Origin: Lingula anatina
Taxonomy: Eukaryota; Animalia; Brachiopoda
Assembly: GCA_051362555.1 (NCBI GenBank)
Contig: CM120645.1
Coordinates: forward strand, 6,324,001-6,388,000
Direction of reading: 5' to 3'
Length of the DNA stretch: 64,000 nt
Numbering within the stretch: position 1 is the stretch's first letter; each line of letters starts with the position of its first letter. Below, piece after piece: positions 171-63,953 of the stretch. Both the position numbers and the translations under genes were made by a program. The notes under the pieces are model-generated. The model did not search any database and was not told the DNA's origin. It worked only from the letters and a program-made list of their open reading frames with translations.

Positions 171-2113
171 CCAGGCTGTATATCTCCCATAAAGTGATAC
201 CAAAGGCCCAGACATCAGACGCAGTGGTATATTTCAGCTGTGGATCCTGCAGAATTTCCAAGGCCATCCATTTGGTGGGTAAACGGCTCTGAAGGTATAG
301 AAAGACAATGTGTCATGTATTACCTTGATAATTTTTTTCTAAATTTTATCTCACAGACTGTAAAAATGTTTCTATGAAAAATATCAATTACACACAACAC
401 ACACATCATTATTTGGCTCCATTTTTAATTATCGCACCCTTTAGTTAAAAAAAAAAAAACCTTACTTTTGGCTGCCTCTTTGTAAGAAAAATATCAAGCC
501 ATTTTTTATATTTTATACTTACTTGTAACTACACACTTTTTTTACCAAGCAAAATACCTTATTTTTGGCTGCATCTTTTCCCTCGGGACCAAATCCCATC
601 ACCTTCGCAACCATTCTACCATTGAGTAGGACATTCTTGGACATCAGCCTCTTGTGGACAATCTTGAAAGAGAAAAAGTACCAAAGTGCTAAAATTTAAT
701 ATTTAGCACCTTGTGATTTAATTGGGTATTTCAGGTTTGAAAAAGAACATGCTAGTACATTTAACAGCTATGTAGTAGAGAAGGGCATTATTGGTTTTGG
801 TATAAAATTCACTGAAATTGGGTAAGTCCCTTGAGTCAGTGTACATGTAACTGGTTTTACAAAAATTAAATCTACAATCATGCATATTTCAAATCACAGT
901 AATTATCAACTTCCTCAACTTCTAAAAGTTTTCAACTTTCTGTCTAAAAATTGAATGTATGATGACATTTTTGTATTAGTATGAACTGGTCTTGGTTGTC
1001 TGTGTAATACATGTAATGTAGTAGTTACCAGATTGTTACTCAGATGTTCCATCCCTGATGCTATCTGTACAGCATACTCCGTCATACGATCAACGGTGTC
1101 AACGCTCAGTTCACCTCCCTTTGCCTTCTGTGCCAGCAACCAGTCACGAAGGGAACCATTTCTGCAATACTCCAAGACCATGTATGGGCCTGTAACAAAT
1201 TTTGATTACCCCTGCAGTATGGTATTTTGTCACTTAGAAGCTGATTTTTTATCTTGCACTATCTAGCCAAATACAGGCCAAACCACACTGAAAATATCTG
1301 TACTAGCTGCTGCAGCAGCTGAACTGGACCAAACTGGATCTTAATGAACTCCCCTTCTGGTGCGAAATAACCTTTCTATTGTGACACTTGTTACAGATGA
1401 GAATTGCCTTGGATATATGAAATTTGAAAATTATGTAACATAGCATGGTCACTCCTCTCACCTGTCTGGAGGTCACTGGTCACCTTTCCAAGCATGGCCA
1501 GAACATTCTCATGACGAGGAACATCTCCAACAAACTCTATCTTATCCAACATCATCTGCCTGTCTGCCTTACTGTTGGCATCTGAAAAGTTTTGGATAAA
1601 CTGAAGAATATATTTCGCACTTGACATCAGAACTTACAAATATACAGATACCTACACTGTATAATATGGAATTAGTGGTCAGAATATATACAGACATATA
1701 CATGTACAATGTCTGTAATATATAATAGAACGAAAACCAAGGTTGTGATACGTATGTTTACAAACTTTCCTTACCATACATATCAGACAAGTGCTCTTCT
1801 GTGACAGATACTCATAGTAAATGTAGAGAATTTTTTTTCAGAATTAAAATATGTTGTGTTGTCTCACTTTTATGTAACTCTGTGATTAAAAATACTTAAG
1901 AAACATTTTACCTTTCAACACTTTTGCAATAACTGCCATAGAATTCTGTCTATCAGGAGTCCACTCAGCATGTCTTATTATAGCAAAATGACCATTGCAG
2001 AGTATGTCTCCCAGAACAATATGACTGCTGGAAATCTCCACACTTCTGCCGAATGCCTCACTCTCATAGTAAATGCCCTGGTCTTCATCTTCATGGTAAG
2101 TATAGTTATTATA
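171..2113 (-). CDS. Gene A tyrosine pseudokinase domain exons (partial)
   Basis: [81 protein letters not shown]. Confidence 0.9.
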
Positions 2114-62100: not shown

Positions 62101-63953
62101 GATAATTAATTCTAGCCTCTTGACATTTATGACAGTGCTGCATAGTCCACCTCAGGCTTGTTTTACATTAAAACAAATTCACAACAGTGCTGGCCAAACT
62201 TGTGCACTGCAAGTTGTAGAATCTTTGGACTATTGTTACCGAAATAACTAGAAGTTAATGAAAGCTTAAATAAACTATTATACTGAATACTCCACCATCA
62301 TCCTGATGTTCTATTGTTCATTACTTCCCGAAAAGATAAAATAACATCAGTGCTGTAACAAACTTTATCAAAATATTAAAAATAGTGCTTTTATTAGTAA
62401 AAGTGATAGTTGTGTGGTTTCTATAGTGAATAAGCAAATTTCCCCAACTTGTTTTTCAGAAATACATTTTAATAAATTCCCTCATAAGGTCAGCTCAGTC
62501 AAGGATGATTAAGTTCGGCTGTAAATGTGATTGATTGTTTATGATGTTGATAGGTCAGGGTAACCTGTTATAGATAATAAATAGACATAACCAGCTATTC
62601 TTAGTGTGACTTTCTTATACATGTATATATAAAGCTAAATTGTTGAAGGTCGTACATATACACATATATTTAGCCGCATGCTGCATGCTAAACACATTCA
62701 GGCTAAAAGCGTGTAACATGTGAAAGAGCTAAACGCGTTAAAAATGAGACAAAACAGGCACTTAGAAATGTGTTTAACAGTCTACATTATATTAAAAAAA
62801 TTTTCAGGTCATTTTAAAGATGCATACAAAGTCAATTTTTGTCATAAAAAAATGACCAAATGCCAGCATATAGTTTCAAGTAGTATATAACTAAGAGAAT
62901 TGCCAAAAGGCATTGTTTAATTTTACCCGAAAATGATGTTTGAACAGATTTTTTTGCTGGCATTCTAAGCTGTATGTCAATGGGGCAGAAAAGTACATGT
63001 AGGTCACGAAAGTAGGTTAAATTTCTGACCAAAAATTTAAAGAAAGGAGCAGTCTCAAGCTCTTTTATGGCTGATCGAGTGATCTTTTCAGTTGGCATGT
63101 CGAATTTATTTGAGTCGTATAAGAAACCTAGTATAAGTGGTTTACACATGTAACTGGGAATCCACGCTCCACCGATGCTCAGTTCGTACAGGTGTATGCA
63201 CCTTTAATGTCTTTTGATCCAAGAATATTGTCTAACAACTGGGGTTGATACAATATTGTTATATGACATTGATCCAATTTTTAAATCCAATGTTAATCCA
63301 ACGTCTTGTCAACGTTGAAGTTAAACGTTGTATTAATATTGAAACAACACAATTTGCACGCTAGGAGTATTCTTAAGAAAAATGAGTTTGTAATTGAAAA
63401 ATTTCAAAACATGTGACAAATTATTTATACTTATATATATTCATATAAAAATTGATAAATTGGCATAAGCTTAGAAAGTGGCTTAAAAAGATTCCAGATC
63501 GTTTTGTGCTGTGCAAGCCAAAGGATACAAATGAATGGGCACTTGAAATTTTCTGTGTCTAAAAACAAAGAAAAATCTTACTTGTATTACAGTTATCCCC
63601 ACTAAATCCAGCTGTGCAGATACATTTTCCAGTGTCAGGGACACAGAATCCTGGGTAACAGTTTCGACTGCGACAAAAATCTGAATATCATAAGAAAAAA
63701 AAATTTTTTTTTGAAACACTAATGACATACTTCATTTTAAATTTGGCACAAATAACAACTTGTGAACATTCCAACAGTACAGTTCTGACAGAACTCCATC
63801 AAAAATAAACAGTAAATTTCCTTTAAAATATTTATTCCCAGGCATGAAATAGGCATGAAATAGTATCACTGACACTTGAGGTGTCATTGGATATATTGTT
63901 TGGGTGACACTTACTTGGACTAACAGTAGGGAGGTGCTCATCAACATTGATCT
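53128..63953 (-). CDS. Gene C: EMI/EGF receptor tyrosine pseudokinase paralogue, exons 10-24 (5' end off-window)
   Basis: Exons: 63915-63953, 63582-63680, 61447-61713, 60997-61114, 60593-60797, 59896-60148, 59203-59289, 58001-58152, 55552-55753, 55163-55282, 54575-54735, 54093-54197, 53721-53838, 53434-53530, 53128-53260. Sizes are identical to gene B, frames are open, and it ends in the same YYGL-stop. Confidence 0.9.
56189..57630 (+). mobile_element. 3'-truncated HINE-like element with tandem repeats
   Basis: Same 5' end and repeat unit as the 39509 element; explains the repetitive ORF 56773-57162. Confidence 0.75.
58001..58152 (-). CDS. Gene C transmembrane exon
   Basis: [21 protein letters not shown] then RRRR. 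Confidence 0.9.
58329..58926 (+). mobile_element. 5'-truncated HINE-like element
   Basis: Last repeat fragment plus 3' body and GTACCGCCAGC..GCTGGTGGTAC hairpin. Confidence 0.7.
61811..63365 (-). mobile_element. Longer, diverged CCCAGC-family element in gene C intron 11
   Basis: CCCAGCAGGCATAG start, CACGCTAGG end, AG on both sides; paralogous empty site in gene B at about 39020. Confidence 0.75.

What the first reader, a model, noticed from the sequence alone, without database searches (positions are those of the whole stretch)
171..63953. Tandem array of EMI-EGF receptor pseudokinases: candidate undescribed recognition-receptor system
Seen: three intact head-to-tail paralogues with architecture SP-EMI-EGF-2x[EGF+novel module]-TM-Tyr-rich linker-dead TK domain-YYGL; the array runs off both window edges. 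Established: EMI+EGF ectodomains typify CED-1/Draper/MEGF10 engulfment receptors, which have no kinase domain and signal through cytoplasmic tyrosines; no classical RTK class that I know has this architecture. Inference: a lineage-expanded family of phagocytosis, immune or allorecognition receptors that uses a pseudokinase as scaffold. Similar proteins may already exist in databases as uncharacterised or FGFR-like models.
Basis: partly seen in the sequence, partly recalled or inferred. Interest (0 to 1): 0.85.

Follow-up and report, generated by a model that had tools for sequence, protein, structure and literature searches.

The report
Dead-kinase receptors with hypervariable tips
This brachiopod carries a tandem array of membrane receptors whose kinase domain has lost its catalytic residues and whose outer tip varies far more than the rest; they belong to an apparently undescribed family shared with molluscs and annelids that likely recognises cell or microbe surfaces and likely signals through tyrosines phosphorylated by another kinase.

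Summary
The array is real. Three minus-strand paralogues lie head-to-tail. Only the middle one (B, 24 exons, 1154 aa) is whole in the window; A and C run off its edges. A is 99% identical to an uncharacterised Lingula anatina RefSeq protein. The architecture is signal peptide, EMI-like cap, EGF, 2x[EGF + module], TM, tyrosine-rich linker, pseudokinase, YYGL. The kinase has HRD->HKR, DFG->GFG and alphaC Glu->Lys, yet is under strong purifying selection (dN/dS 0.08-0.13). The 'novel module' is predicted to be two FN3/Ig-like sandwiches. It is not Lingula-specific: 26 relatives from molluscs, an annelid and hemichordates pair it with a TM and kinase, and all 26 lack the catalytic Asp. Lingula's kinase groups with the lophotrochozoan ones (100/99). 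The cationic cap is 33-52% identical between paralogues, against 77-94% in the rest of the ectodomain. An acidic juxtamembrane tyrosine motif is kept in 21 of 22 clade members. The immune role is inferred, and no read links cap exons to kinase exons. Verdict: a lineage variant of an old receptor-pseudokinase family that my literature searches did not find described.

The parts
171..25652 (-). Paralogue A: 22 exons from the signal peptide to most of the pseudokinase; last two kinase exons lie beyond the window's left edge. Exons (high-low): 25652-25573, 24494-24408, 24199-24102, 15833-15738, 15269-15171, 14492-14229, 9279-9150, 7877-7658, 7408-7183, 6936-6898, 6778-6680, 6270-6004, 5710-5593, 5179-4975, 4539-4287, 3905-3819, 3422-3271, 2113-1912, 1581-1462, 1189-1029, 662-558, 288-171
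   Evidence: Open frame of 1075 aa; 99.07% identical to RefSeq XP_013404752, LOC106169714
32866..48613 (-). Paralogue B: complete 24-exon gene, 1154 aa
   Evidence: best stored RefSeq paralogue 92% identical
48519..48613 (-). B exon 1: signal peptide (predicted from hydropathy)
   Evidence: Hydrophobic N-terminus; 26/31 identical to exon 1 of RefSeq paralogue P0001
47840..48250 (-). B EMI-like cap, two exons (48250-48164, 47934-47840): six Cys, cationic and aromatic, hypervariable
   Evidence: Scores 34 bits on an HMM built from 19 non-Lingula homologues, best of 100 shuffles 7 bits; 33-52% identity among four Lingula caps
46229..46691 (-). B EGF1 (46691-46596) and EGF2 (46327-46229)
   Evidence: Pfam EGF_2 E=7e-6 for EGF1; weaker EGF hits for EGF2
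41900..45820 (-). B module 1, five exons (45820-45557, 43377-43248, 42781-42562, 42326-42104, 41938-41900): predicted two FN3/Ig-like beta-sandwiches
   Evidence: AlphaFold2 of the matching module of A's RefSeq protein, pLDDT 92; FN3 matches Z 8.3-9.2
39239..39337 (-). B EGF3
   Evidence: Pfam EGF hits E 0.003-0.05
36686..38954 (-). B module 2, five exons (38954-38688, 38323-38206, 38004-37800, 37345-37093, 36772-36686); internal duplicate of module 1 with the same exon phases
   Evidence: a public contig joins two of these exons across the intron
36094..36245 (-). B transmembrane helix and basic stop-transfer stretch
   Evidence: Hydropathy peak 3.4 at residue 795
32866..35374 (-). B acidic tyrosine-rich linker, pseudokinase and YYGL tail, seven exons (35374-35173, 34919-34800, 34381-34221, 33824-33720, 33573-33456, 33269-33173, 32998-32866)
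   Evidence: Pfam PK_Tyr_Ser-Thr; motifs HKR, GFG, alphaC Lys; dN/dS 0.08-0.13
53128..63953 (-). Paralogue C: 15 exons from the end of module 1 to YYGL; 5' half beyond the right edge. Exons: 63953-63915, 63680-63582, 61713-61447, 61114-60997, 60797-60593, 60148-59896, 59289-59203, 58152-58001, 55753-55552, 55282-55163, 54735-54575, 54197-54093, 53838-53721, 53530-53434, 53260-53128
   Evidence: Open frame of 717 aa; 94% identical to B; best RefSeq paralogue 95%

Best explanation
These genes encode single-pass receptors with a tyrosine-kinase domain that lacks its catalytic residues and a hypervariable cationic tip, which likely recognises diverse anionic surfaces (microbes, dying or foreign cells) and likely signals as a scaffold through tyrosines phosphorylated by a separate kinase. 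Steps: (1) Shown: signal peptide-like start, EMI-like cap, EGFs, duplicated module, TM, pseudokinase. (2) Predicted: the EGF and FN3/Ig-like modules form a stalk that holds the cap away from the membrane. (3) Inferred: paralogues diversify the cap to widen the ligand range while the stalk and pseudokinase stay conserved. (4) Inferred: ligand-driven clustering lets a Src-family kinase phosphorylate the conserved acidic juxtamembrane tyrosine and the C-terminal YY motif. SH2 proteins (Syk/Shark-type kinases, adaptors) would dock there, as on Draper and PEAR1, with the pseudokinase as a folded docking or dimerisation platform. The output would be haemocyte adhesion or engulfment.
For: Catalytic Asp absent in B, C, A and 26 of 26 homologues. 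DFG Asp absent in all 25 of those 26 that align there. alphaC Glu is Lys in 22 of 22 members of the lophotrochozoan clade. Kinase dN/dS is 0.08-0.13, so the fold is being kept. An acidic-hydrophobic-Tyr motif lies within 32 aa before the kinase in 21 of 22 clade members, against 452 of 4400 random ectodomain windows. It resembles the Src-family substrate consensus (recalled). Tyr-rich C-tails are typical. Cap identity is 33-52% against 77-94% for EGF and modules. B vs P0001: cap 32/61 between a signal peptide and EGFs at 84/96, Fisher p=2e-6. Caps have K+R 8-10 against D+E 1-3. The cap end plus EGFs match SCARF1 and fibrillin-1 N-termini. Adjacent locus numbers suggest tandem copies in Pecten, Nucella, C. 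angulata and Sinanodonta too. Draper signals through cytoplasmic phosphotyrosines, and EMI domains mediate adhesion (PMC13076899).
Against: No functional or haemocyte expression data were seen. Pfam EMI does not match, and A's cap has only four Cys. There is no NPxY or ITAM in the tail. Positive selection is not shown: A/B cap dS is saturated (2.7) and omega is 0.26, so exon-level conversion could also explain the pattern. Expression was low: one of three RNA runs gave stranded depth of about 0.2-5.6 over the kinase half, two gave almost none, and none covered B's cap exons. The four hemichordate relatives lack the juxtamembrane motif (0 of 4). One Owenia member has a VWA tip instead of the cap.
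Confidence: 0.5

Rival explanations
1. Developmental or adhesion co-receptor. Like PTK7, ROR, RYK or STYK1, the pseudokinase would modulate an active RTK or Wnt receptor, and the cap would mediate cell-cell or matrix adhesion (NimA/PEAR1-like) rather than immune sensing.
For: This is the known role of RTK pseudokinases (PMC13727655 passages, for STYK1-EGFR). NimA's EMI domain serves adhesion rather than phagocytosis. The same module occurs in adhesion GPCRs and giant FN3 proteins. The family is old and conserved.
Against: Repeated tandem duplication and tip-restricted hypervariability are unusual for developmental receptors. The kinase does not group with PTK7.
Confidence: 0.27
2. Self/non-self or gamete recognition locus: the cap variants would bind like with like, as allorecognition proteins do.
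For: Tip hypervariability. B and C have no 99% match among the stored RefSeq models while A does, hinting at haplotype-specific gene content. EMI domains can mediate cell-cell contact.
Against: A's cap is identical between this assembly and RefSeq, so there is no sign of allelic hypervariability at A. Uniformly cationic caps suit homophilic binding poorly (inference).
Confidence: 0.1
3. Atypical active kinase: conserved basic residues would replace Mg2+ and allow weak phosphotransfer.
For: The beta3 Lys is kept, and the Asp->Arg/Lys and Glu->Lys changes are conserved rather than random.
Against: The catalytic base, the Mg-binding Asp and the alphaC Glu are all gone together. Nucleotide binding without catalysis is more plausible.
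Confidence: 0.05
4. Redundant or decaying duplicates, or uncollapsed haplotypes, with no special function.
For: Several RefSeq paralogue models are truncated or split, and expression in the laid runs is low.
Against: No stops in 61 modelled exons and omega at most 0.35 in all alignable domains after the signal peptide. Paralogues differ by 6-19% in protein against about 1% between assemblies for A, and introns carry different insertions.
Confidence: 0.08

Closest known systems
Uncharacterised lophotrochozoan EMI-like/EGF/FN3 receptor pseudokinases (e.g. C. virginica XP_022305312, C. gigas K1RP20 named 'FGFR2', Haliotis XP_067649880, Owenia CAH1777003)
   Same: Same cap-EGF-module-TM-kinase order (cap motif seen in 11 of 26; several records are 5'-partial), same dead motifs, acidic juxtamembrane Tyr and Tyr tail; one kinase clade at 100/99.
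   Different: They have one module followed by about 400 aa that includes a Pfam fn3 in many. Lingula's array has the [EGF+module] doubled instead.
CED-1/Draper/MEGF10/PEAR1/SCARF1 engulfment receptors
   Same: N-terminal CCxGW-type cap followed by EGF (match to SCARF1); single TM; cytoplasmic tyrosines.
   Different: No Pfam EMI hit, only 3 EGFs, FN3/Ig-like modules, a pseudokinase domain, and no NPxY or ITAM.
STYK1/NOK (SuRTK106)
   Same: By eye against the human sequence in the PMC8662651 supplement: first G-loop Gly lost, alphaC Glu replaced by a basic residue in an x-I-x-F context, DFG changed to G-hydrophobic-G.
   Different: STYK1 keeps the catalytic Asp (HGD) and has no real ectodomain. 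That study assigned no brachiopod, mollusc or annelid kinase to STYK1. Not placed in my tree.
PTK7/CCK4, ROR, RYK receptor pseudokinases
   Same: Single-pass receptor with a non-catalytic TK domain.
   Different: Different ectodomains. PTK7 falls outside the clade; ROR and RYK were not in the tree.
Tie and FGFR/Ret/VEGFR group
   Same: Best PDB kinase matches are FGFRs. The six kinase intron positions and phases fit the FGFR/Tie pattern (recalled). Tie also combines EGF and FN3 (recalled).
   Different: Those are active kinases with Ig tips; the 'Tie-1-like', 'Mer-like' and 'FGFR2' names are automatic best-hit labels.

Membership tests
Receptor tyrosine kinase superfamily | Signal peptide, one TM, intracellular TK-fold domain | tested here: met
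Pseudokinase | Loss of HRD Asp, DFG Asp or the beta3-Lys/alphaC-Glu pair | tested here: met
   HKR, GFG, alphaC Lys
Pseudokinase | No measurable phosphotransfer | not testable with these tools
   Needs an assay
Lophotrochozoan cap-EGF-module pseudokinase family (defined here) | Module + TM + dead kinase forming one clade | tested here: met
   26-row clade at 100/99 among 50 rows; references lacked FGFR, Tie, STYK1, ROR, RYK proper
CED-1/Draper/MEGF10 | EMI domain | tested here: inconclusive
   No PF07546 hit, but a CCxGW cap like SCARF1/fibrillin; cap not folded reliably
CED-1/Draper/MEGF10 | Long EGF array; kinase-free tail with NPxY/YxxL | tested here: not met
   3 EGFs, kinase domain present, no NPxY or ITAM
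STYK1/NOK | DFG->GLG-type change and basic alphaC residue | tested here: met
   By eye
STYK1/NOK | Catalytic Asp kept (HGD); minimal ectodomain | tested here: not met
   HKR; ectodomain of about 790 aa
STYK1/NOK | Kinase-tree monophyly with vertebrate STYK1 | not tested
   No STYK1 sequence was available as a stored protein
PTK7/CCK4 | Seven Ig domains; kinase clade | tested here: not met
   Different ectodomain; outside the clade
Tie | Ig-Ig-EGF3-Ig-FN3x3 with active kinase (recalled) | tested here: not met
   Catalytic residues absent; tip is not Ig

The most novel reading that the evidence does not exclude
An unrecognised receptor class conserved across brachiopods, molluscs and annelids that joins a CED-1-like cap to a charge-reversed pseudokinase. 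It is repeatedly amplified in tandem and diversified only at its cationic tip, acting as a germline-variable innate recognition and engulfment receptor. It may also be the ectodomain-bearing ancestral form of the orphan vertebrate pseudokinase STYK1.
Probability: 0.3. Interest if true: 0.85.

Novelty: new variant of a known kind. Interest (0 to 1): 0.62.

Why it matters
Receptor pseudokinases are known from a few single-copy, mostly developmental families. Here a family with conserved dead motifs spans brachiopods, bivalves, gastropods and an annelid, sits in tandem copies, and in Lingula varies mainly at its tip. That is the pattern of recognition receptors. It gives invertebrate immunology a concrete, testable candidate in oysters, scallops and abalone, where the genes are now labelled 'uncharacterised' or 'FGFR2'. 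It also offers a lead on where STYK1 came from.

Tried and rejected
No genome assembly is held for this window, so array extent could not be mapped. Word-index searches found the module only in Lingula (3 of 38 and 3 of 7987 candidates), which was misleading; the HMMER search found 270. The kinase word search returned mostly PTK7, which the tree rejects. Single-sequence AlphaFold of the whole protein failed (pLDDT 34). Atlas: module hits at 0.90 were unnamed mollusc and chordate clusters, one with fn3 in 38% of members; kinase hits were generic. Foldseek gave only weak beta-sandwich matches (TM <= 0.36). No RNA holder was listed in the index. In the RNA lay an intronic repeat swamped the joint table: the 15 joints shown of 128 were all in repeats. 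A second lay gave no result, so junction-by-junction support is missing. No extra cap exons were found in the window, and no Rfam match. The oyster kinome table lists three proteins named 'FGFR2'; I could not tell which is K1RP20, so its stress-expression marks were not used. Earlier findings of this scan: three look-ups, nothing shown. Literature: ten searches found no description of the family; six accession terms gave 0 papers. Not seen and possibly relevant: the supplements of PMC4898815, the Kwon 2019 pseudokinase survey, and recalled papers on amphioxus NOK/EXTK expansions and Lingula immunity.
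Full report
Observation. Self-comparison shows three sets of homologous exons on the minus strand. I placed exons by eye, then let a script pick the nearest AG/GT pairs with the required phases; one exon of B was corrected by hand. A spans 25652-171 (22 exons, 1075 aa open, last two kinase exons off the left edge). B spans 48613-32866 (24 exons, 1154 aa, complete). C spans 63953-53128 (15 exons, 717 aa, 5' half off the right edge). 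All 58 introns are GT-AG and there is no internal stop. So 'three intact genes' holds as far as can be seen, but only B is whole.

Identity. An exon search returned three Lingula anatina proteins. A is 99.07% identical over 1075 aa, without gaps, to XP_013404752 (LOC106169714, 1151 aa, three isoforms), whose model runs from signal peptide to YYGL. This independently supports my splicing. Other RefSeq paralogue models lie on the same 409-kb scaffold (LOC106169699, LOC106169700, a 'Mer-like' and a 'Tie-1-like' piece) and on two more scaffolds. B and C match the stored models at only 92% and 95%. The arrays may differ between assemblies, or the list may be incomplete.

Anatomy. There are three EGF domains and one TM helix. 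[EGF+module] is duplicated, at 27-29% identity with the same exon phases. AlphaFold2 with 67 sequences gave a confident model of module 1 (pLDDT 92), almost all beta. The best structural matches are FN3 tandems and single FN3 domains (Z 9.2, rmsd 9.0 A over 191 residues; second domain Z about 8.4, rmsd 2.5-2.7 A over 90-93 residues). These Z values are near the common background, so 'FN3/Ig-like' is a fold class, not a family. The cap gives no Pfam EMI hit. Its end and the EGFs match the N-termini of fibrillin-1 (E=9e-8) and SCARF1 (E=1.5e-4) through the CCxGW...C..PIC motif. I therefore call it EMI-like.

The kinase is dead but kept. All three copies read HKR for HRD, GFG for DFG, Lys for the alphaC Glu and a degenerate Gly loop, and keep the beta3 Lys. 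Kinase dN/dS is 0.11, 0.08 and 0.13 in the three pairs.

The family is old. A profile of the module found 270 representatives at E<=0.001. Of the 149 listed non-self hits, 107 match most of the module; 28 of these have a kinase match and 26 a near-complete one. The other two were dropped as partial. All 26 lack the catalytic Asp. I named 17 of the 26: Owenia, Crassostrea/Magallana, Pecten, Ylistrum, Pinctada, Sinanodonta, Haliotis, Nucella, the hemichordates Glandiceps and Ptychodera, and one record without a name. In a 50-row kinase tree, four Lingula rows and 22 homologues form a clade at 100/99. The four hemichordate kinases form a separate clade, and PTK7 lies outside (quick version). The references were only what earlier searches had stored, so FGFR, Tie, ROR, RYK and STYK1 proper were missing. 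The cap motif is seen in 11 of the 26. Among the 22 homologues rescanned, only the Lingula array protein and one other Lingula protein without kinase have two full modules. Adjacent locus numbers suggest tandem copies in several molluscs (inference). The module also occurs in starfish adhesion GPCRs and giant FN3 proteins.

Signs of mechanism. (a) An acidic-hydrophobic-Tyr motif just before the kinase is present in 21 of 22 clade members, 0 of 4 hemichordates and about 10% of control windows. It resembles the Src-family substrate consensus (recalled). Tails are Tyr-rich. There is no NPxY or ITAM. (b) Among four Lingula paralogues the cap is 33-52% identical, against 77-89% for EGF1-2, 78-91% for module 1 and 84-94% for module 2. 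In the B/P0001 pair the cap (32/61) sits between a conserved signal peptide and EGFs (84/96; p=2e-6). Positive selection is not shown, because the only pair with DNA (A/B) has saturated dS there. (c) All four caps are strongly cationic and aromatic. One RefSeq isoform omits the second cap exon.

Expression. In about 6% of one polyA run, stranded depth of about 0.2-5.6 covered the kinase half of B, in the direction expected for a minus-strand transcript in common library types. Two other RNA runs gave almost nothing there, and none covered the bin with B's cap exons. One contig, from a run whose kind is not on record, joins two module-2 exons across their intron with 20 differences, so it may come from a paralogue. 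No read evidence links cap to kinase; that link rests on the RefSeq model and on homologues.

Reading. Most likely a non-catalytic recognition receptor: a variable cationic tip binds anionic surfaces, clustering allows trans-phosphorylation by a Src-family kinase, and SH2 proteins dock, as described for Draper (PMC13076899; passages and one discussion section read). The structure and pseudokinase status are solid, phosphotyrosine docking is likely, and the immune role is about even. The main rival is an adhesion or developmental co-receptor.

Comparison with print. From PMC8662651 I read passages, one section and parts of the supplement. It leaves 77 brachiopod and 141 mollusc TKs unclassified and assigns none to STYK1. 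Human STYK1 there shares three degenerate features with this family but keeps the catalytic Asp; this is a lead only. PMC4898815 (passages) argues that STYK1 lost its ectodomain secondarily. PMC4883820 (passages and part of a table), PMC5620054 (passages) and PMC13727655 (passages) did not describe the family in what I read. Ten searches of an open-access library found no description; subscription papers were not searchable.

Verdict. A real array and a lineage variant (doubled module, local tandem copies) of an old, apparently undescribed receptor-pseudokinase family. Interest 0.62.

Noticed in passing
window 39838-40879, 56531-57412, 22862-23184: Intronic tandem repeat of about 145 bp units in all three genes, at different introns; it draws hundreds-fold RNA read depth, probably from copies elsewhere in the genome.
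   Followed up: partly
window 25662, 48795, 50924, 34183 (minus strand): An ETS-type 8-mer (label recalled) occurs four times on the coding strand; one lies 10 bp before A's ATG and one about 180 bp before B's. No shuffle control run.
   Followed up: no
window 25752-26040 vs 50886-51275: Upstream regions of A and B are homologous although their signal-peptide and cap exons are highly diverged, hinting at exon-level exchange or conversion.
   Followed up: partly
window 12612-13245 vs 44092-44846: Non-coding blocks conserved at 77-82% within the same intron (between module-1 exons 1 and 2) of A and B; RNA reads map there on both strands, so a repeat or a regulatory element.
   Followed up: no
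window 24293-24419: A 59-bp tandem duplication repeats the donor region of A's first cap exon; RefSeq isoform X3 appears to use another donor and skips the second cap exon.
   Followed up: partly
window 11745-13769 vs 26283-31185; 8256-9082 and 10726-11517 vs 20531-21541: Dispersed inverted copies, likely non-autonomous transposon fragments, inflate A's introns (4.9 and 8.3 kb) and the A-B spacer.
   Followed up: no
proteins P0142, P0158, P0231: The same two-sandwich module sits in the ectodomain of adhesion GPCRs (GAIN/GPS/7tm_2), two of them from starfish; P0142 also has a CCxGW motif near its start.
   Followed up: partly
proteins P0219, P0244, P0187, P0278: Hemichordate receptors with the module have a differently degenerated kinase (HRK, SFS/SFA, alphaC Glu kept) that the tree does not unite with the lophotrochozoan clade: possibly an independent loss of activity.
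   Followed up: partly
proteins P0130/P0279 (Lingula LOC106169508): A second Lingula protein with two modules, EGF repeats and no TM or kinase detected.
   Followed up: no
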